Below are positions 1-6,613 of a DNA stretch of 11,494 nucleotides, in pieces (within the stretch, counting starts at the first letter, position 1; each line of letters opens with the position of its first letter). Under the pieces are notes generated by a model that did not search any database, was not told the origin of the DNA, and was given only the letters and a program-made list of their open reading frames with translations. The stretch comes from a virus (taxonomy: Duplodnaviria > Heunggongvirae > Uroviricota > Caudoviricetes). The translations under genes were made by a program, and so were the position numbers. Where the stretch lies: IMG/VR virus record IMGVR_UViG_3300018488_000078; one strand, 5' to 3'.

Positions 1-251
1 TCATAACGGAACGTGCCGGACTTGTAGAACGTCAGCGTGGTGCTGGTCTGGTCAGCATCAACCGCCAGAATGCCAACGGCAGTACCGTCGGTGGTGCCAT
101 CCCACGCAACCAGCTTACGGGTGGAGGTGTCCAGCATCAGCGGGGTCATTGCAGGCGCTTTCGCACTCAATCCGCCGGGCGCGGTTGCGGTATGAGCCGG
201 GTCACTGTTGCCCAGCGGCTGGTAATGGGTAAAGGTTTCTTTGCTCGTCAT
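1..251 (-). CDS. D: Head decoration protein gpD (lambda-type), N-terminal 83 codons; 3' end lies beyond the window start
   Basis: Minus strand from ATG at 249-251 translates [56 protein letters not shown]..., matching lambda gpD as I recall it nearly residue for residue. The start is 9 nt downstream of the C stop (261-263), as in lambda. Confidence 0.9.
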
Positions 252-260
252 AAACATCCC

Positions 261-656
261 TTACACTGGTGTGTTCAGCAAATCGTTAACGGCATCAGAT
301 GCCGGGTTACCTGCAGCCAGCGGTGCCGGTGCCCCCTGCATCAGACGATCCAGCGCAGTGTCACTGCGCGCCTGTGCACTCTGTGGTGCTGCGGCCAGAA
401 TGCGGCGGGCCGTTTCCACGGTCATACCGGGAGTTTCTGCCAGCACGCGGGCCTGTTCTTCGCGTCCGTGAGCCTCCTCACAGTTGAGGATCCCCATAAT
501 GCGGCTGTTTTCTGCCGCAACCGCAGCGGTGATCTGCGCGTTCACGTCCGGCTGCGCCGCGCTGGCGTTTTCGCCCTCCGTCGCTGGCACCACGTCAGTA
601 ACGTCAGCCTGCGAAGCAGTGGCTGAAACAGTTGTTGATTGAGTCTCTTTGGTCAT
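261..656 (-). CDS. nu3: Scaffolding protein Nu3, translated from an in-frame internal start within C
   Basis: ATG at 654-656 in the C frame, preceded by AGGAGG. Product MTKETQSTTVSATASQ... is the C-terminal 131 residues of C, the nested C/Nu3 arrangement known from lambda. Exact start not verifiable here. Confidence 0.65.
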   Translation of the reverse strand: MTKETQSTTVSATASQADVTDVVPATEGENASAAQPDVNAQITAAVAAENSRIMGILNCEEAHGREEQARVLAETPGMTVETARRILAAAPQSAQARSDTALDRLMQGAPAPLAAGNPASDAVNDLLNTPV

Positions 657-1580
657 TCGCCCTCCTGAGAGACGGGATTTACGTGCATCCAGTGCATCAC
701 GCATAACGGTGATCGCATCGGTGCTGTTGACAAGTTCATCAGCCAGTCCGGCATCAATGGCCTCCTGACCGCTGTACACTGCAGCCTCGGTATCCAGCAC
801 AGCCTGCACGGACAGGCCGGTATATGCCGACACCTTCTGCGCAAACATCCGGCGGGTTGCGTCCATCCGGGACTGCAGTGTCTCCCGGACGTCATCCGGA
901 AGATGGCTGTAGGGGTTGCCATCCACCTTATGGCTGCCGCTGTAAATCAGCGTGATTTCCACACCCTGTTTCTCCAGCGCAGCACCGTAATTACTGTGAG
1001 CCATCATGACGCCGATGGAGCCTGTCCGGGCGGTCTGCGTGACCAGACGCCGGGAGGCGGCACTAGCAAGCAACTGACCTGCACTGCAGTTCATGTCGTT
1101 GGCAAGCGCCCATACCGGTTTTATGTCACGCACACGGGCGATGATGTCAGCGCAGTCAAATGCCCCCGCCACCATCCCGCCGGGCGTGTCCATATCGAGC
1201 AGAATGCCGTCCACCATCGGGTCGCTGGCAGCCTGTTGCAGACGGGCGATAATGCCGTTGTAACCGGTCATCCCCGAATACGGCTGCAGCGCTCGCGTCC
1301 GACTGACCAGCGTGCCGGACACCGGCAGCACGGCGATGCCGTTCATGACCTGATAACTGCGGGCCTGTCGTGGTCCGTCATCATCAACGGATAACGCCAG
1401 CGCCGCGGGTGCCTCTCCGGCAGTCAGGCTGTCGCCGGATACCGCATCCGTCAGGCGGCTGATCCCAAGCTGGCCTGCAAGCGCACAAAAGAAAACCCGC
1501 GCATAGGCGGGTTCAAGCATCAGCGGCTCATTAAAGGCCATACTGGCAATATGCGGGAGATTACGCAGCTCTGCTGTCAC
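261..1580 (-). CDS. C: Capsid assembly protease gpC (S49/ClpP-like prohead protease), lambda-type
   Basis: 439-codon frame from GTG at 1578-1580 with GAGGAGGAG just upstream. Translation VTAELRNLPHIASMAFNEPLMLEPAYARVFF...DAVNDLLNTPV has the length and sequence I recall for lambda gpC. It overlaps the 3' end of the B frame by 20 nt, the lambda arrangement. The ORF-track extension up to 1715 is a read-through of the upstream frame and is not used. Confidence 0.9.
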   Translation of the reverse strand: MTAELRNLPHIASMAFNEPLMLEPAYARVFFCALAGQLGISRLTDAVSGDSLTAGEAPAALALSVDDDGPRQARSYQVMNGIAVLPVSGTLVSRTRALQPYSGMTGYNGIIARLQQAASDPMVDGILLDMDTPGGMVAGAFDCADIIARVRDIKPVWALANDMNCSAGQLLASAASRRLVTQTARTGSIGVMMAHSNYGAALEKQGVEITLIYSGSHKVDGNPYSHLPDDVRETLQSRMDATRRMFAQKVSAYTGLSVQAVLDTEAAVYSGQEAIDAGLADELVNSTDAITVMRDALDARKSRLSGGRMTKETQSTTVSATASQADVTDVVPATEGENASAAQPDVNAQITAAVAAENSRIMGILNCEEAHGREEQARVLAETPGMTVETARRILAAAPQSAQARSDTALDRLMQGAPAPLAAGNPASDAVNDLLNTPV

Positions 1581-2334
1581 TCTTCTCCTCCTCTGTTGAT
1601 TGTCGCAGCCCGGATTCAAATGCCGCAGCCGCCCAGGCGGGCGGTTTAAGACCGGCTGCACGGCGCTCCATCGTTTCACGGACCTGCTGGGCAAAAATTT
1701 CCTGATAGTCGTCACCGCGTTTTGCGCACTCTTTCTCGTAGGTACTCAGTCCGGCTTCTATCAGCATCACCGCTTCCTGTACTTCTTTCAGACCATCGAT
1801 GGCCATACGACCGGAGCCTATCCAGTCGCAGTTCCCCCAGGCACTTCGGGCTTCCTGAAAACTGAAGCGCGCTTTTGAAGGTAACGTCACCACGCGGCGA
1901 GCGATGGCCTCTTCCAGCCAGCACAGAAACATCTGGCTCGCCTGACGGGATGCGACGAATTTTCGCCGCCCCATAAAGTACGCCCACGACTCGTTCGCAC
2001 TGGCCCGTGCCGTGGAGTAGCTCATCTGGGCGTAATTCCGGGAAAGCTGCTCATACGAGACACCCAGTCCGGCAGCGATATACCGCAACAGTGACTGCTC
2101 AAACACGGAGTAGCCGTTATCCGTGTCCTGAGCCGTCTGCAGGTTCAGTGAGTCCCCCGGCATCAGGTGCGGCACTTTTGCGCCTCCCAGCCGGACCGGT
2201 GCTGCGGCGTAATACGCGGCAATTTCACCAATCCAGCCGGTCAGCCTTTCCCGCTGCTCCTGACTGTTCGCGCCCAGAATAAAATCCATCGCTGACTGCG
2301 TATCCAGCTCACTCTCAATGGTGGCGGCATACAT
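1561..2334 (-). pseudogene. B: Portal protein gpB, C-terminal 257 codons only; N-terminal half absent (truncated gene)
   Basis: Translation MYAATIESELDTQSAMDFILGANSQEQRERL...AFESGLRQSTEEEKSDSRAA matches the C-terminal part of lambda gpB as recalled; lambda B is roughly twice this length. Upstream of 2334 the frame runs only 11 more codons (ILFFSCLFIKA, AT-rich) before a stop at 2368-2370, then non-coding repeat DNA. Confidence 0.85.
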
Positions 2335-2469
2335 CGCCTTTATGAAAAGACAGGAAAAAATAAAATTTAAAAACAGTACATTACGAATGCTCAGACCTAT
2401 CGTTTAAAGGAGTCGCAATACACACTGCAATACACGATTATTTATAAGATGAGCGGCATCCGTCATAAA

Positions 2470-2708: not shown

Positions 2709-2763
2709 GCTGAATCATCATTACGGCGATGCAGCTATGTAGACGTTCCGGCCTCCTCAAATT

Positions 2764-2925
2764 GAGGATTGTGGAAGAATCAATGGGTTAGTCTTACTTT
2801 CCCGACATCCCCCAATGGGGGTTTTCGAAACAATCAATAGCTTAGGCTTACTTCCCCGATTTCCTGCATTGCAGGTTTTCGAAATAATCAATGGGTTAGG
2901 CCATCGTGCAATTTTGCACTTTGCC
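2764..2925. repeat. Three tandem units of about 54 bp, each carrying a perfect IHF consensus (WATCAANNNNTTR) at 2768-2780, 2822-2834 and 2876-2888
   Basis: AATCAATGGGTTA, AATCAATAGCTTA and AATCAATGGGTTA sit exactly 54 bp apart; units 2 and 3 also share GGTTTTCGAAA immediately upstream. A palindrome CCTCAAATTGAGG (2745-2757) precedes the array. Confidence 0.7.
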
Positions 2926-3149
2926 AGCCAGCGCAATGTCGCGTTATCAGTCCTCGGATGTGAGGGATGTAGCCAGCTTTTCCCCCAGTGGGGGATATCC
3001 AGCACCGACGGCTTAACTGTGCGTGCCAGCACAAGGTAGCCTTGAACTACTTACTGCATCCCATCTTACAGGCCGTGCCTTCCTGCTTAACTTTTTGCAA
3101 TGCAACAAGTCAGCCAGCGCAATTTTGCGTTATCGGGAATATCAGCAAG

Positions 3150-3431
3150 TTACCGCCGCAATCGTTCCGGCTTCTTCCACTGGTAAGTATTTTTCGCGCT
3201 CTCCCTCCGTTGTTGAGAACGGCGACGATATGCCAGCAACTCAAGGACTCTTGTTCGTATGTTGCGCATATCCACGCCGTTAAGCTCAATACCGTCACGG
3301 CGCATCACCTCAGCCACTACACGCACATAATTATCTGCGGTCACGCTGTCCGGCTGCGTGGCCTGTTCGTCATGCTGCTTGCTGATTCCACAAGCACGGC
3401 GGATTAATCGCAGTATTTCGGATTCAGTCAT
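3150..3431 (-). CDS. Hypothetical protein, 93 aa, in the position where a large terminase gene would follow the small terminase
   Basis: ATG at 3429-3431 starts 11 nt after the TerS stop; weak Shine-Dalgarno, so translation may be coupled. Product MTESEILRLIRRACGISKQHDEQATQPDSVTADNYV... has no recognisable domain by eye. It is far too short to be a large terminase. Confidence 0.45.
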   Translation of the reverse strand: MTESEILRLIRRACGISKQHDEQATQPDSVTADNYVRVVAEVMRRDGIELNGVDMRNIRTRVLELLAYRRRSQQRRESAKNTYQWKKPERLRR

Positions 3432-3442
3432 AGCGTACTACG

Positions 3443-3985
3443 TTACTTATCTTTATTCGGCTGCAACTTATCCGGTACGTTTCCGGCAGTTTCCATCAGA
3501 TAATCGGACAGCATCAGCGGTATGTTTTCGTCAAGTTTTGCGCATGCGTTACAGGCTCTGATAACTTCTTTTTTCAGTCCATCCAGCATAGACGGCTTCA
3601 TGTCGGGAAACTTCCTTGTCATGGCAAGCGGCAGGCTGTCCATGATTGAAGAAATCTGACTCGCCAATTTTGAAAGCACGTATATACAAAACGCTGTATC
3701 AATAACGTCGCCGCGTTCGCGCTCGTTTTTAAGCTCCTGCGCCTCTGCCTGTGCTGTCAGCAATCTGATCCTGACTCGTAGGAGTTCATCATCATCAATC
3801 TCGCCTTTGTCGTCTGTAATCTGGTTAATTGCATTGCTAACCCGATTGTCTATTACGCTGGCAACATCATAAAACGCCTCGCGGCCTTTACGTTCAACGG
3901 GAGTCACTCCCCACTTGTCGAACGCTGTCGCACTTACACGGCAGCTTTGCGCCATGTTTTTTTTGTTCATCAGGTGCGATTTCAT
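3443..3985 (-). CDS. Terminase small subunit, Nu1-like, with divergent N-terminal (DNA-binding) region
   Basis: C-terminal two thirds align by eye to lambda Nu1: RLLTAQAEAQELKNERERGDVIDTAFCIYVLSKLASQISSIMDSLPLAMTRKFPDMK versus lambda RLTRAQADAQELKNARDSAEVVETAFCTFVLSRIAGEIASILDGLPLSVQRRFPELE. The N-terminal ~70 residues differ. Start chosen at ATG 3983-3985 (GGGGA 6 nt upstream); GTG at 3995-3997 and ATGs at 3968-3970 and 3953-3955 are alternatives. Confidence 0.85.
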   Translation of the reverse strand: MKSHLMNKKNMAQSCRVSATAFDKWGVTPVERKGREAFYDVASVIDNRVSNAINQITDDKGEIDDDELLRVRIRLLTAQAEAQELKNERERGDVIDTAFCIYVLSKLASQISSIMDSLPLAMTRKFPDMKPSMLDGLKKEVIRACNACAKLDENIPLMLSDYLMETAGNVPDKLQPNKDK

Positions 3986-4096
3986 CAATATCCCCACTTA
4001 AGTAATGTTTCAGGTTGGTGTATTGGCTTTATCTTTTCCTTTTTATTCATAGAGATAGAGCGAACAACAAAACCACCACCAGCACCCGAAAAAGGC

Positions 4097-4160
4097 TCAT
4101 AAATAGCGAAAACCCGCGAGGTCGCCGCCCCGTAGCCTACCGGATCACCGGAAAGGACCC
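4097..4160 (-). other. Lambda-type cos site: cosQ-like segment (4141-4160) and cosN with 12-nt cohesive-end sequence GGGCGGCGACCT (4119-4130); cosB side divergent
   Basis: Minus strand reads GGGTCCTTTCCGGTGATCCGGTAGGCTACG-GGGCGGCGACCT-CGCGGGTTTTCGCTATTTATGA. The cohesive-end 12-mer and flanking cosN sequence match the lambda left end as I recall it, and the upstream segment matches the lambda right-end/cosQ region except for a few bases. Below 4097 the sequence departs from lambda cosB. Confidence 0.85.
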
Positions 4161-4186
4161 GCCAGCCAGAGCGGGCCCTAATTTCA

Positions 4187-4570
4187 TCAACCAATCAGCT
4201 TATAGCGACCATCCCGTGCATTGCGGCGTACACGCTCAATCTTGAGGCATAGCGCCGCATCTGGCTTTTTTGGGACAGGTACGCGGCAATATTCAGAAGC
4301 GCGAGGAATATTATTTATCCAGTCGATCACTTCACTTAAATACCAGGCCTTACGCCCTTCCGTAACCTGCACACGCTCCGGGAACTCTCCACTAGCCTCA
4401 AGGTTTAGCAGTGTACGACGACTCAGGGTTGTAATTTCCATCACCTGATTCATATCAACAAGGCGCTCGCTTAAACACATTTTGTCAGCGATAGCTTTTA
4501 ATTCCTCTACAGCTGGATTCGGGTACATCATTTCGGCAATTGGCTTAAGGTCATTGTAATCATTCTGCAT
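4187..4570 (-). CDS. AlpA-family (MerR-like HTH) DNA-binding regulator with ~40-residue N-terminal extension
   Basis: ATG 4568-4570 with GGGGGA upstream. Segment VMEITTLSRRTLLNLEASGEFPERVQVTEGRKAWYLSEVIDWINN fits the AlpA/prophage CP4-57 regulator HTH pattern. Stop at 4187-4189 lies 26 bp from cosQ. Confidence 0.65.
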   Translation of the reverse strand: MQNDYNDLKPIAEMMYPNPAVEELKAIADKMCLSERLVDMNQVMEITTLSRRTLLNLEASGEFPERVQVTEGRKAWYLSEVIDWINNIPRASEYCRVPVPKKPDAALCLKIERVRRNARDGRYKLIG

Positions 4571-4581
4571 TGTATCCCCCT

Positions 4582-4923
4582 TTACACACGAGCCAGCGGC
4601 TGAACAGAAATACCTGAGCCAACAAACGCTGCAACCTTTACTGACAGTTCTTTAACAGACTCAGGCCAGTTCAGAGCATCAACATTTAAGACACCTGTCT
4701 TATAGACCTGAGCCTGTGTTTTTTTCGCGGTGTCGATTTGTACAGCGGAAACATAAACCGCTTTACCTACGCTCGAACCATCCCATACCACCAGTGCACC
4801 TGTTGCATCTTCCTGCATCAGTGGCGTAAATGCAGGAATTACCCCTTTATTAGCTGAAAATATCCCCAGCGTAGTCACCAGTGCTTCAGTGCCAGCCATG
4901 AGTTCAGTGTAATGAGTAGCCAT
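4582..4923 (-). CDS. Head decoration protein, gpD-like, divergent from the lambda-type D at 1-251
   Basis: ATG 4921-4923 with GGGGGAG upstream. By-eye alignment to lambda gpD: PAFTPLMQEDATGALVVWDGSS...YKTGVLNVDALNWPES...AAFVGSGISV versus [22 protein letters not shown]...[16 protein letters not shown]...TAFAGTAISIV. Confidence 0.8.
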   Translation of the reverse strand: MATHYTELMAGTEALVTTLGIFSANKGVIPAFTPLMQEDATGALVVWDGSSVGKAVYVSAVQIDTAKKTQAQVYKTGVLNVDALNWPESVKELSVKVAAFVGSGISVQPLARV

Positions 4924-4932
4924 TGCTCCCCC

Positions 4933-5979
4933 TTAGCCAATGCGAACGGTAACAAAACGATTGATGCGGGCCGGTATTGGCTGTGGTGCTGAATGTGTCT
5001 GCACATATTCAATAGCCGGATCACCAGGCACAATATAGTTTTTCGGTGCAAGTTCGGCTTTAGTCAGCCCCATTCGGATTAGCTCCGGATCCTGAATACC
5101 GCCATAGGCGACAATCCCCTGAAGAGCCGTATTGCCAAGCACCATCAAATCAGGATCAAGGAAATGTTTTTCTGTTCCGTCCTCGTCGGTATAACGTCCG
5201 CTGTAAACAACAATCGCAACATCGCCCATATACCCTTTAAAACTCACCGAATCACCAAGGTCTTTAAGGGCCGTTTCCAGTTCGGAATTAGAACCACGAC
5301 GGGTATCCAAAGCCTCTTTTATCGCTCTGAATGAACGGTATTTCTTCCATACATTACCACCCATAATGATGATATTAGTGACGCCCTCACTAAATTCTGC
5401 GTAGCTCTCAATATCATCATTTGGATCAAAAGTTTCTTTATCCTTACCTGACCACTCAGTACCGCCAGACTGAGTGATGATATTTTGTGGTTTTATATTC
5501 CAGTCCAGCTCATAACGTTCAATACCATCGCCCTCAATGATATTTTTCCCCGTTGTGATTGCCTGAACAGCAAGCCATTCAATACGTGCACGAATAGCTT
5601 TAGCCTGATTTACAATCGCCTGTTTAACTTTAATATTACGCGCCCCAAAAGCATTGTATTGCTCAGGTGACACACCAGCAGGGCGCACAGCTAACTTATT
5701 TGGATCAATGCTGCTTTTCGGCTTCATATAACCTGGACGAATTGTTTTTGATTCGTATCCCTCATCTCGTGAAACTTTACTGCCCACCATAGGAGAGCAA
5801 AACGCCGCGATCGGGATATTTGGATCGTCGATCGTATCAAGAATAATGTCTCTCGATTCAAACATTACCGAGCGAGTGAAAAACAAACTGGTAAACAACG
5901 CATTTAATTTTTTTTGCACATCTTCAGCATTAGCCACCTGCACAAGCTGTGTAGGCGAATATAAATCAACCATACTCAT
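4933..5979 (-). CDS. Major capsid protein, lambda gpE family, divergent
   Basis: Shared blocks with lambda gpE as recalled: NIITQSGGTEWSGKDKETFDPNDDIESYAEF versus NITQSGGTEWSKRDKSTYDPTDDIEAYA, and LDTRRGSNSELETA in both. N-terminus MSMVDLYSPTQ parallels lambda MSMYTTAQ. ATG 5977-5979 abuts the GAGG motif, so the ATG at 5971-5973 (6-nt spacer) may be the real start. ORF-track extension to 6060 is not used. Confidence 0.85.
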   Translation of the reverse strand: MSMVDLYSPTQLVQVANAEDVQKKLNALFTSLFFTRSVMFESRDIILDTIDDPNIPIAAFCSPMVGSKVSRDEGYESKTIRPGYMKPKSSIDPNKLAVRPAGVSPEQYNAFGARNIKVKQAIVNQAKAIRARIEWLAVQAITTGKNIIEGDGIERYELDWNIKPQNIITQSGGTEWSGKDKETFDPNDDIESYAEFSEGVTNIIIMGGNVWKKYRSFRAIKEALDTRRGSNSELETALKDLGDSVSFKGYMGDVAIVVYSGRYTDEDGTEKHFLDPDLMVLGNTALQGIVAYGGIQDPELIRMGLTKAELAPKNYIVPGDPAIEYVQTHSAPQPIPARINRFVTVRIG

Positions 5980-6144
5980 CCTCTTTACATTCATTACAAA
6001 TAATTGTGAATATATTCTATTACCGATGTCTGCTATGCGAATACATGCAACCAAGTGCAATGTTGTATAAAATATGCCGTAACAACTTCAGTGCTGATAA
6101 TTCGTGTTAATGTATTTACTTCCTTTGGTCGGGATTTATGTAGC

Positions 6145-6184
6145 ATGCCGGAAAATCTATTTTTTTCCGGCATCTTTTTGTTTG
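6145..6184 (+). terminator. Stem-loop (11-bp arms ATGCCGGAAAA / TTTTCCGGCAT, 7-nt loop) followed by CTTTTTGTTTG; terminator-like on the plus strand only
   Basis: Read directly: arms 6145-6155 and 6163-6173, T-tract 6174-6184. On the minus strand the hairpin is not followed by a U-tract. No plus-strand gene is annotated upstream, so its role is unclear. Confidence 0.35.
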
Positions 6185-6190
6185 CAGAAT

Positions 6191-6613
6191 TTAAAACGGT
6201 ATATTATCGCCGTACGGATCATCATTCCCCGACTGTTGTTTTGCCCTGTTCAGTGCGTCAGTGGCCTGCCCCTGCTGGCCTTTTTTGCCGCCCGGTCGCG
6301 CCGTTCGCGCACTGATTACGCTGTCTGCGATAACCTGCCAGCCCCGCCGCGTTTCGCCGTTCTGGCCTGTCCACTGGCTTACCTGCATGTTACCCGCCAC
6401 GCTCACCAGTTCGCCTTTGTGGTGTTTTGCCAGTGCGTCGGCCTGTCTGCCAAACGCCAGGACGGATAACCACATCGTCGCCGTTCCGTCATCTGCCTGG
6501 CTGCACGGCAGGGGAACCGCCATACTCGCCATCGCCATTTGTGTCCCTTTGCTGGTGGTCTTTAACTGCGGGTCAGCCACCAGCCGCCCGTAAGCCGCTA
6601 TCTGTGCTGTCAT
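6191..6613 (-). CDS. ssb: Single-stranded DNA-binding protein (SSB) with acidic C-terminal tail ending DNIPF
   Basis: ATG 6611-6613 overlaps the upstream stop (ATGA). Glycine/glutamine-rich linker and C-terminal ...DDPYGDNIPF resemble the E. coli SSB tip ...DDDIPF. Confidence 0.8.
   Translation of the reverse strand: MTAQIAAYGRLVADPQLKTTSKGTQMAMASMAVPLPCSQADDGTATMWLSVLAFGRQADALAKHHKGELVSVAGNMQVSQWTGQNGETRRGWQVIADSVISARTARPGGKKGQQGQATDALNRAKQQSGNDDPYGDNIPF

What the first reader, a model, noticed from the sequence alone, without database searches (positions are those of the whole stretch)
4187..4570. AlpA-family regulator at the 3' end of the capsid operon, directly upstream of cos
AlpA-type regulators normally sit at the regulatory end of P4-like and PICI elements, next to the integrase. 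Here the gene is 11 bp after the decoration gene and 26 bp before cosQ, with an extra ~40-residue N-terminal region. It may be a late activator, or a DNA-binding accessory acting at cos.
Basis: partly seen in the sequence, partly recalled or inferred. Interest (0 to 1): 0.4.

Follow-up and report, generated by a model that had tools for sequence, protein, structure and literature searches.

The report
Capsid-operon regulator of a phage satellite
The gene is a real second AlpA-type DNA-binding protein that always travels with a phage satellite's capsid and decoration genes, and comparative evidence suggests it controls that operon's own promoter rather than acting at the neighbouring DNA-packaging (cos) site.

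Summary
Window 4187-4570 (- strand) encodes a 127-aa protein with a Phage_AlpA winged helix-turn-helix at residues 36-85. It starts 11 bp after the decoration gene and stops 26 bp before a lambda-type cosQ.

The element is a helper-embedded PICI (a phage satellite) inserted in the portal gene of a lambda-like prophage. It also has the usual AlpA next to its integrase, just outside the window.

This second copy ("AlpA2") belongs to a narrow enterobacterial family. It is always the third gene of a capsid-decoration-AlpA2 trio. The trio stays together in satellites whose integrase, main regulator and replication genes are unrelated. AlpA2 is kept in relatives that have lost the satellite's own small terminase.

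Every trio is preceded by 3-5 hexamers, TT(G/A)(C/T)AC, repeated every 10 bp (window 6035-6070). The array ends 23-25 nt before a -10 element, and there is no -35. It occurs nowhere else in the satellites or the helper prophage.

The predicted fold matches excisionases and BldC, proteins that bind phased direct repeats head-to-tail.

My best reading (confidence about 0.45) is that AlpA2 is the capsid operon's own regulator, probably an activator. A role at cos is not supported but not excluded. No binding was tested.

The parts
4187..4570 (-). AlpA2: 127-aa AlpA/Xis-type winged-HTH protein, last gene of the capsid operon. It has N-terminal helices (residues 8-33), a wHTH (37-86) and a basic C-terminal helix (105-119).
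4575..4580 (-). Shine-Dalgarno sequence GGGGGA, 4 nt before the AlpA2 ATG, inside the 11-bp gap after the decoration gene
   Evidence: sequence
4582..4923 (-). Head decoration gene (lambda gpD family), second gene of the cassette
4933..5973 (-). Major capsid gene (lambda gpE family, 346-aa form with a conserved SD), first gene of the cassette
6014..6019 (-). Predicted -10 hexamer TAGAAT of the capsid-operon promoter (Pcap). The equivalent hexamer in other loci often carries a TGn extension.
6035..6070 (-). Array of direct hexamers every 10 bp: TTATAC 6070-6065, TTGCAC 6060-6055, TTGCAT 6050-6045, TCGCAT 6040-6035. This is the proposed AlpA2 binding site.
6145..6173 (.). Palindromic hairpin after the SSB gene. 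It has a T-tract (terminator-like) only on the + strand, not in the direction of the replication genes. Other loci also carry hairpin-forming sequence at this position, judged by eye.
4154..4179 (-). 10-bp GC-rich hairpin directly after the AlpA2 stop. Its 3' arm is cosQ (GGGTCCT, 4154-4160). Other loci have a hairpin or a canonical terminator at this position.
4119..4130 (-). cosN 12-nt cohesive-end sequence GGGCGGCGACCT, identical to lambda
   Evidence: sequence
4010..4082 (-). Satellite-specific cosB region. CTGGTGGTGGTTTTGTTGTT (4063-4082) and CAATACACCAACCTGA (4010-4025) are conserved only in loci that carry the satellite TerS.
3443..3985 (-). Satellite small terminase, a full-length Nu1 homologue 37% identical to the helper's Nu1, including its C-terminus. 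It is not part of the AlpA2 cassette and is missing in 38 of 80 close relatives.

Best explanation
AlpA2 is the capsid cassette's own transcription factor. I propose that several monomers of this Xis/BldC-type winged-HTH protein bind head-to-tail on the 3-5 hexamers TT(G/A)(C/T)AC. These repeat every 10 bp, so they lie on one face of the helix, immediately upstream of a capsid-operon promoter that has a -10 (often TGn-extended) but no -35. From there AlpA2 would control transcription of capsid, decoration and its own gene. The position of the sites (roughly -30/-40 to -70) and the missing -35 point to activation with positive feedback, but the sign is uncertain. First expression could come from read-through of upstream satellite or helper late transcription. 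The operon ends at a hairpin just before cosQ. On this reading, the gene's closeness to cos follows from the capsid operon being the last unit before the genome end.

Shown here: family membership, the gene order and its conservation, the array with its position and specificity, and the predicted fold.

Inferred: that AlpA2 binds the array, the oligomeric binding mode, and the direction of regulation.
For: 1. Capsid-decoration-AlpA2 is a fixed trio in about 11 lineages. These satellites have unrelated or dissimilar integrases, three unrelated classes of integrase-adjacent regulator (two AlpA types and HTH_17), and different replication genes (D5 primase, AAA_25, DUF927, Toprim). AlpA2 identity tracks capsid and decoration identity, not integrase or regulator identity.

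2. Every trio is preceded by a 10-bp-phased hexamer array. In 10 of the 11 lineages its last good unit ends 23-25 nt before a -10 hexamer; in the Serratia lineage (L021/L022) that spacing holds only if the final unit, at the -35 position, is not counted.

3. In 373 kb of satellites and prophages the array occurs only there. Shuffled sequence gives about 0.35 hits per set. It is absent from the whole EC93 helper prophage.

4. Capsid cassettes without AlpA2 (EcCICFT073, L103, L105, L106) lack the array.

5. The only two lineages with a substitution at recognition-helix residue R52 (R52G in L012, R52Q in L021) are also the only ones whose units are TTGTAC, TTGTGC or TTAGAC instead of TTGCAC.

6. 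The model (pLDDT 77, core about 90) best matches the GIsul2 excisionase 8c3t, RdfS, BldC-DNA filaments and Pukovnik Xis. BldC binds direct repeats head-to-tail as a regulator (PMC5859096). RdfS uses an extra N-terminal helix to oligomerise and also regulates promoters (PMC11963761). D29 Gp36 is a similar phage regulator (PMC12266134).
Against: No binding or expression data exist; everything is comparative.

Presence of AlpA2 is confounded with the capsid clade: all array-bearing cassettes have capsid proteins at least 72% identical to the window's. The array could therefore be bound by another conserved host or helper factor.

The R52 covariation rests on two lineages. The Buttiauxella/Scandinavium lineage keeps R52 but uses TTATAC units.

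A distant AlpA-domain protein at the same position in Salmonella (L104) has no recognisable array.

Ten-bp TTGCAY repeats also occur in more than 100 unrelated viral contigs, so the motif alone is not diagnostic.

An activator encoded only by the operon it activates needs an independent trigger, and I did not identify one.
Confidence: 0.45

Rival explanations
1. Packaging accessory at cos. AlpA2 would bind near cosQ/cosN, or bind the small terminase, to help or redirect terminase. This would resemble Rpp or an IHF-like bending factor.
For: The gene is always the last one before cos, 26 bp from cosQ here. The wHTH fold is shared with TerS DNA-binding domains and Rpp, though these rank lower (7lwr, 6hn7_B, 1j9i). 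In EcCICFT073 both genes flanking cos differ together: c1502 with RppA, against AlpA2 with a Nu1-like TerS here.
Against: The recognition helix is nearly invariant, but the DNA between the stop codon and cosQ is unrelated between loci except for a hairpin, and no hexamer units occur near cos. AlpA2 is retained in 38 of 80 close relatives that lack the satellite TerS, and in L003, L010 and L012, where the satellite TerS and its cosB have been replaced or lost. There is no sequence similarity to RppA. Rpp sits downstream of cos, in the TerS position (PMC9026076).
Confidence: 0.12
2. Second excisionase or recombination directionality factor, or a regulator of int, controlling the timing of satellite excision from the helper prophage.
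For: The best structural and sequence relatives are excisionases (8c3t, RdfS, Pukovnik Xis). PHROG 2790 is labelled 'excisionase and transcriptional regulator'. AlpA relatives are known directionality factors (PMC10111431).
Against: AlpA2 does not track the integrase type. It is 69-72% identical in elements whose integrases are unrelated. Every element already has a small HTH gene next to int. No hexamer array lies near attR in the window or near the att regions of the loci.
Confidence: 0.1
3. Trans-acting regulator of helper or host genes, for interference or host manipulation. The hexamer array would then be bound by some other factor.
For: A second, non-canonical AlpA in EcCIMP1 is dispensable for excision and transfer and has no assigned function (PMC11773190). 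Satellites commonly encode helper-directed regulators, for example P4 delta (from my own knowledge).
Against: No array exists in the EC93 helper prophage or the CFT073 prophage. The only DNA element co-inherited with AlpA2 is the one at its own operon. Host chromosomes were not scanned, so host targets are untested.
Confidence: 0.15

Closest known systems
Canonical PICI AlpA (master activator next to int, e.g. EcCICFT073; PMC6092414)
   Same: Same Pfam domain (PF05930) and wHTH fold, encoded by the same kind of satellite. AlpA activates its own promoter.
   Different: Only 32% identical in the core, with a different recognition helix. AlpA2 is 40-55 residues longer, with N- and C-terminal helices. 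It lies at the 3' end of the capsid operon rather than next to int, and it does not covary with int.
BldC (Streptomyces) and RdfS (ICEMlSymR7A): small Xis/MerR-like wHTH proteins
   Same: Top structural matches. Both oligomerise head-to-tail on phased or extended DNA sites and regulate promoters (PMC5859096, PMC11963761). RdfS has an extra N-terminal helix used for oligomerisation, and AlpA2 also has extra N-terminal helices.
   Different: No meaningful sequence identity (18-24%). They occur in different organisms and elements. Binding by AlpA2 is only inferred, and its repeat unit (TTGCAC every 10 bp) differs from BldC's AATT-N4-C.
P4 delta in the sid-delta-psu operon (from my own knowledge, not checked in the library)
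   Same: A functional analogy only: a satellite operon for capsid-modifying or decoration proteins that also encodes its own late transcription factor, close to cos.
   Different: Delta is an Ogr-type zinc-finger protein, unrelated in fold. It also activates helper late genes, whereas no AlpA2-type array is found in the helper here.
Rpp of EcCICFT073 (PMC6739421, PMC9026076)
   Same: A small wHTH protein encoded next to a PICI cos site.
   Different: Rpp lies downstream of cos in the TerS position and works by pairing with helper TerS. AlpA2 lies upstream of cos, has no sequence similarity to RppA, and coexists with a full-length satellite TerS or with none.
EcCIMP1 alpA_1 (PMC11773190)
   Same: A second AlpA-family gene in an E. 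coli PICI, far from int. It is dispensable for excision and transfer and its function is unknown.
   Different: It is on the opposite strand at the end of an element that has no capsid genes. Its sequence was not compared here.

Membership tests
Pfam Phage_AlpA (PF05930) / AlpA-family wHTH | Domain match above the curated gathering score | tested here: met
   35.8 bits against a cut-off of 21, E 7.6e-9, residues 36-85 covering profile positions 2-51 of 51
Pfam Phage_AlpA (PF05930) / AlpA-family wHTH | Winged helix-turn-helix fold of the Xis/MerR type | tested here: met
   AF2 model with core pLDDT about 90. Foldseek best hit 8c3t: TM 0.85 normalised to the target, rmsd 0.9 over 52 columns
Canonical PICI master regulator AlpA | Gene directly downstream of int at the regulatory end of the element | tested here: not met
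   The target is the third gene of the capsid operon. A separate AlpA occupies the canonical position (L001 15132-15389)
Canonical PICI master regulator AlpA | Required for induction, excision and replication of the island | not testable with these tools
   Needs genetics
Recombination directionality factor (excisionase) | Co-inheritance and co-evolution with a cognate integrase | tested here: not met
   AlpA2 is 69-72% identical in elements with unrelated integrases
Recombination directionality factor (excisionase) | Phased binding sites in an att arm | tested here: not met
   No hexamer array near attR (core ATCGCCTT, 2333-2340) or elsewhere in the elements. This test assumes the hexamer is the AlpA2 site.
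BldC-like head-to-tail direct-repeat regulators | Small MerR/Xis-like wHTH without a coiled-coil dimerisation domain | tested here: met
   Foldseek hits to 6ama chains: probability 1.0, TM 0.72-0.76 normalised to the target. The C-terminal helix 105-119 is short.
BldC-like head-to-tail direct-repeat regulators | Cooperative binding to a variable number of phased direct repeats at target promoters | tested here: inconclusive
   A suitable array of 3-5 repeats every 10 bp is co-inherited with the gene. Binding itself was not tested.
Rpp (redirecting phage packaging) | Sequence similarity to Rpp, and a gene position downstream of cos in place of terS | tested here: not met
   No BLASTP alignment to RppA. 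Foldseek hit to 6hn7_B is weak (E 0.48, rmsd 9.6). The gene is upstream of cos.
Rpp (redirecting phage packaging) | Heterodimerises with helper TerS | not testable with these tools
   Needs interaction assays or multimer modelling
P. aeruginosa AlpA / Q-like antiterminators | N-terminal ring-forming segment plus a C-terminal HTH (residues about 128-142), with the binding element between -35 and -10 | tested here: not met
   The target's HTH is central (residues 40-60) and the protein has only 127 aa. The array lies upstream of the -35 position. The architecture was compared with PMC9371919; no sequence comparison was run.

The most novel reading that the evidence does not exclude
AlpA2 could be a dual-purpose protein. 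A filament on the phased array would switch on the satellite's capsid and decoration genes. At the same time its conserved, family-specific C-terminal helix would contact terminase or the adjacent cos end. That would couple production of satellite head proteins to packaging of the satellite genome. It would be a new kind of link between late transcription and cos recognition in phage satellites.
Probability: 0.08. Interest if true: 0.7.

Novelty: new variant of a known kind. Interest (0 to 1): 0.42.

Why it matters
Most Gram-negative PICIs carry capsid and decoration genes, yet in the model island EcCICFT073 deleting them changed neither phage interference nor transfer (PMC6092414, PMC10111431). 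Their role is an open question. This analysis suggests the genes form a self-contained, separately regulated cassette of promoter array, capsid, decoration and a dedicated wHTH regulator, which moves between otherwise unrelated satellites. That gives a direct experimental handle: remove or over-express one small gene, or mutate a 36-bp array, to switch the cassette and ask what it does. It also shows that AlpA-domain genes in satellites are not all the 'master regulator', which matters for automated satellite annotation.

Tried and rejected
- **Rpp-like identity:** rejected. There is no similarity to RppA, and the gene is on the wrong side of cos.
- **Homology with EcCICFT073 c1502, the gene at the same position:** none found, and c1502 has no Pfam hit.
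- **P. aeruginosa AlpA antiterminator:** the name is the same but the architecture differs (PMC9371919).
- **Sigma-54 promoter reading of TTGCAC-N4-TTGCAT:** rejected by inspection. The essential GG of the -24 element is TT here, and the spacing is one base short of the sigma-54 consensus (recalled from my own knowledge). Three to five repeats are also not a sigma-54 feature.
- **Array as replication iterons:** rejected. The ori iterons are a different repeat at 6967-7198.
- **Array inside a real small ORF (6033-6173, 46 aa):** rejected. The flanking sequence is not conserved between loci.
- **Rfam scan of the window:** no hits at gathering score.
- **NCBIfam:** no model hits AlpA2, TerS or orf93.
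- **First AF2 model from 21 sequences:** too poor to use (pLDDT 62). The second, from 50 sequences, was usable.
- **Profile search for deeper homologues:** added almost nothing. The full-length family is narrow; only three 50%-identity clusters (P0001, P0099, P0100) match from the N-terminal helices through to the C-terminus.
- **Genome-contig scan:** only 4 loci.
- **Viral-contig scan with the capsid protein:** only near-identical relatives.
- **Viral-contig scan with the array pattern:** mostly unrelated 10-bp tandem repeats.
- **Salmonella locus L104, with a distant AlpA-domain protein at the same position:** no recognisable array, so it could not serve as an independent test.
- **Small ORF abutting the capsid gene in AlpA2-less cassettes:** it looks like a ribbon-helix-helix protein by eye, but Pfam gave no support, so I make no such claim.

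Full report
**1. What is in the window**

All genes named here lie on the - strand except one. In order they are: a Bro-N protein (10894-11283), a divergent YlcI-like gene on the + strand (10255-10560), several small ORFs, DUF4222 (8958-9257), a D5-type primase (7207-8961), a 104-aa ORF, SSB (6191-6613), a lambda gpE-type capsid gene (4933-5973), a gpD-type decoration gene (4582-4923), the target (4187-4570), a cos site, a Nu1-type small terminase (3443-3985) and a 93-aa ORF (3150-3431).

Window 1 to about 2340 is 98% identical to phage lambda genes B (C-terminal part), C and the start of D.

In E. coli EC93 the same 9-kb element, at 98% identity, sits inside the portal gene of a lambda-like prophage. 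An integrase and a canonical AlpA lie just beyond the window's right end. The attL/attR core is ATCGCCTT, at window 2333-2340.

This is a helper-embedded PICI of the kind described by Tommasini, Mageeney and Williams (PMC10111431).

**2.

The 127-aa product carries a Phage_AlpA domain at residues 36-85. It matches PHROG 2790 and the AlpA-family excisionase 8c3t.

- It starts 11 bp after the decoration gene, behind a strong ribosome-binding site.
- It stops 26 bp before cosQ (GGGTCCT, 4154-4160).
- cosN (GGGCGGCGACCT, 4119-4130) is identical to lambda, and similarity to lambda ends exactly at cosQ.

A second AF2 model (pLDDT 77, core about 90) shows two N-terminal helices (8-15, 19-33), a wHTH with a beta-hairpin wing (37-86) and a C-terminal helix (105-119).

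**3. The family and its fixed neighbourhood**

Full-length relatives form a narrow enterobacterial family. Genera include Escherichia, Enterobacter, Citrobacter, Klebsiella, Salmonella, Pluralibacter, Kosakonia, Kluyvera, Cedecea, Buttiauxella, Scandinavium and Serratia. Beyond it, only the 50-residue AlpA core finds matches.

The recognition helix and wing are almost invariant. Core dN is 0.05-0.08 with saturated dS. The C-terminal part is moderately constrained and the N-terminal part is the least constrained.

In every locus examined the gene follows capsid and decoration directly. The rest of the satellite varies:
- integrases are dissimilar or unrelated to the window element's (identity 53% or less; five product lengths);
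- integrase-adjacent regulators fall into three unrelated classes;
- replication genes are D5, Toprim-D5, AAA_25 or DUF927;
- integration sites lie in helper late genes, next to fis, or elsewhere.

AlpA2 identity follows capsid and decoration identity, not integrase or regulator identity.

Among 80 near-identical IMG/VR relatives, AlpA2 is intact in 79; the exception is cut by an IS3 element. The satellite TerS is missing in 38.

In the TerS-less loci I read, cosB is either lambda-like (L003, L010) or no longer recognisable (L012).

AlpA2 therefore belongs to the capsid cassette, not to the integration module or the terminase module.

**4. A co-inherited DNA element**

Aligning the DNA upstream of the capsid gene revealed direct hexamers repeated every 10 bp.

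| Locus | Hexamer units, in order |
|---|---|
| Window | TTATAC, TTGCAC, TTGCAT, TCGCAT |
| Kosakonia, Kluyvera, Pluralibacter | (T/C)TATAC, then TTGCAC x3 (last unit TTGCAT in Kluyvera) |
| L012 | TTGTAC, TTGTAC, TTGCAT |
| L021 | TTAGAC x2, TTGGGT, TTGTGC x2 |
| L006 / L014 | TTATAC x2, then a weak third unit |

- The last good unit ends 23-25 nt before a -10 hexamer. Here that is TAGAAT at 6019-6014, which the consensus scanner also picked. Elsewhere it is often TGnTAnnAT.
- No -35 hexamer is present.
- A hairpin follows the replication genes (6145-6173). Its T-tract is on the + strand only, so it is not a clear terminator for those genes.
- A scan for three or more units with at most one mismatch found the array only at this position in 373 kb of loci. 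Shuffled sequence gave about 0.35 hits per set.
- The whole EC93 helper prophage has none.
- Capsid cassettes without AlpA2 have none either (EcCICFT073, Edwardsiella, Lelliottia and one unidentified genome assembly, L106). They carry a small ORF abutting the capsid start, and three of the four (not Lelliottia) show TTGC-N5/6-GCAA palindromes before TGATTATAAT.
- The only two lineages with a substitution at recognition-helix residue 52 (R52G, R52Q) are also the only two whose units depart from TTGCAC or TTATAC.

**5. Fold-based expectation**

Foldseek places the core with the GIsul2 excisionase, RdfS, BldC-DNA filaments and Pukovnik Xis. TerS DNA-binding domains and Rpp rank lower.

- BldC binds variable numbers of direct repeats head-to-tail and regulates promoters (PMC5859096).
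- RdfS oligomerises through an extra N-terminal helix and regulates promoters as well as excision (PMC11963761).
- Phage D29 Gp36 is a comparable regulator that binds direct repeats (PMC12266134).

A 10-bp-phased direct-repeat array is the kind of site such proteins use.

**6. Mechanism proposed, and its status**

I propose that AlpA2 oligomerises on the array and controls the capsid-operon promoter. The site position and the missing -35 suggest activation with positive feedback.

The operon ends in a hairpin whose 3' arm is cosQ in this element. In other loci a canonical terminator precedes cosQ. Proximity to cos then follows from the capsid operon being the last unit before the genome end.

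- Shown: the family, the synteny, the array and the fold.
- Inferred: binding, stoichiometry and the sign of regulation.
- Confidence: about 0.45.

**7. Rivals**

- *Role at cos (0.12).* This is suggested by position and by the fact that EcCICFT073 has different genes on both sides of cos (c1502 and RppA). Against it: there is no conserved DNA next to cosQ, AlpA2 persists without the satellite TerS, and it has no similarity to Rpp.
- *Second excisionase (0.10).* This is suggested by the closest structures. Against it: AlpA2 does not covary with the integrase, and there are no arrays at att.
- *Trans regulator of helper or host genes (0.15).* This cannot be excluded for host targets, which were not scanned.
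- The remaining probability covers functions I have not thought of.

**8. Literature**

The helper-embedded PICI paper places Phage_AlpA proteins in the 'integration' category and does not discuss a capsid-linked copy. De Sousa et al. note only that some satellites have two regulatory genes. EcCIMP1 has a second alpA of unknown function, but in a different context. I found no paper describing this cassette regulator or the array.

**9. Verdict**

The target is a new, context-specific variant of a known protein kind, with a concrete and cheaply testable regulatory hypothesis. Interest is moderate.

Noticed in passing
window 1-2340; L001 5162-5944 and 16829-17662: The satellite is inserted in the portal gene (B) of a lambda-like prophage, so the helper's portal is split until the satellite excises. 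The attL/attR identity block is ATCGCCTT (window 2333-2340). This matches the published helper-embedded PICI class.
   Followed up: yes
window 3443-3985 (-): The satellite encodes a full-length Nu1-type small terminase. It is 37% identical to the helper's Nu1 over its whole length, including the C-terminal end, and has a divergent N-terminal DNA-binding part. The HE-PICI paper says the related 11capE 'lacks terS', although 11capE-type loci (L002) carry this gene. It is missing in 38 of 80 close relatives.
   Followed up: partly
window 4010-4082 (-); L002, L006, L009, L011: The satellite-specific cosB motifs CTGGTGGTGGT(T/G)TTGTTGTT and CAATACACC(A/C)ACCTGA are conserved only where the satellite TerS is present. 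EcCICFT073 cos1 has the reverse complement, CACCACCACCA, at a similar distance from cosN. The TerS-less loci L003 and L010 carry a lambda-like cosB instead.
   Followed up: partly
L002, L006, L009, L011, L012, L019 just downstream of AlpA2: The 12-nt cohesive-end sequence differs between satellites (GGGCGGCGACCT, GGGCGGAAGGCG, GGGCGGCAGACT, GGGCGTCGACCT, GGGGATGTATAC, GGGCGTAAGACG, GGGCGGTAGACG). It presumably tracks each helper's terminase.
   Followed up: no
window 2748-2909: Three tandem 54-nt repeats (65-72% identical), each containing a 13-nt palindrome (CCTCAAATTGAGG, CCCCCAATGGGGG, CCTGCATTGCAGG). They lie in the ORF-poor stretch between orf93 and attR. Function unknown.
   Followed up: no
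window 2416-2435 (+) and 4018-4025 (-): CAATACAC occurs three times against 0.31 expected. Two copies lie 12 bp apart near attR, possibly the 'doubled motif' reported for HE-PICI attP arms. The third is inside the satellite cosB.
   Followed up: no
window 2925-2948 and 3111-3134: A 24-nt direct repeat, CAGCCAGCGCAAT(G/T)T(C/T)GCGTTATC, 92% identical and 186 bp apart, downstream of orf93. A 12-nt partial copy lies between cosQ and the AlpA2 stop (4161-4172) and may be chance.
   Followed up: no
window 6967-7198: Direct and inverted repeats of GTAGAGGG-type units lie between the primase gene and the next ORF. This is the expected position of a PICI replication origin.
   Followed up: no
window 10142-10236: Nested inverted repeats (TCGGTGTGTTTCA / TGAAACACACCGA and a 26-nt pair) lie in the divergent intergenic region between the YlcI-like gene and the leftward early operon. 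They look like operators. They are unrelated to the hexamer array.
   Followed up: no
L013 12463-12669; L103 3789-4001; L105 3774-4001; L106 3795-4001: Capsid cassettes that lack AlpA2 instead have a 68-75 aa ORF whose stop overlaps the capsid start. Three of the four (not L105) are preceded by TTGC-N5/6-GCAA palindromes and a TGATTATAAT promoter element. This may be an alternative cassette regulator, but Pfam gives no hit.
   Followed up: partly
L104 5375-5812 (Salmonella): A 145-aa protein with an AlpA domain (42% identical in the core, with different extensions) follows capsid and decoration in a third capsid clade. The 'capsid-decoration-AlpA-domain' arrangement is therefore older than the 127-aa family.
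   Followed up: partly
L008 2084-2497 (EcCICFT073 c1502): The gene at the position equivalent to AlpA2 in the model PICI EcCICFT073 is an unrelated 137-aa acidic protein with no Pfam hit, followed by a canonical terminator and cos1. The downstream 93-aa ORF is 76% identical to window 3150-3431.
   Followed up: partly
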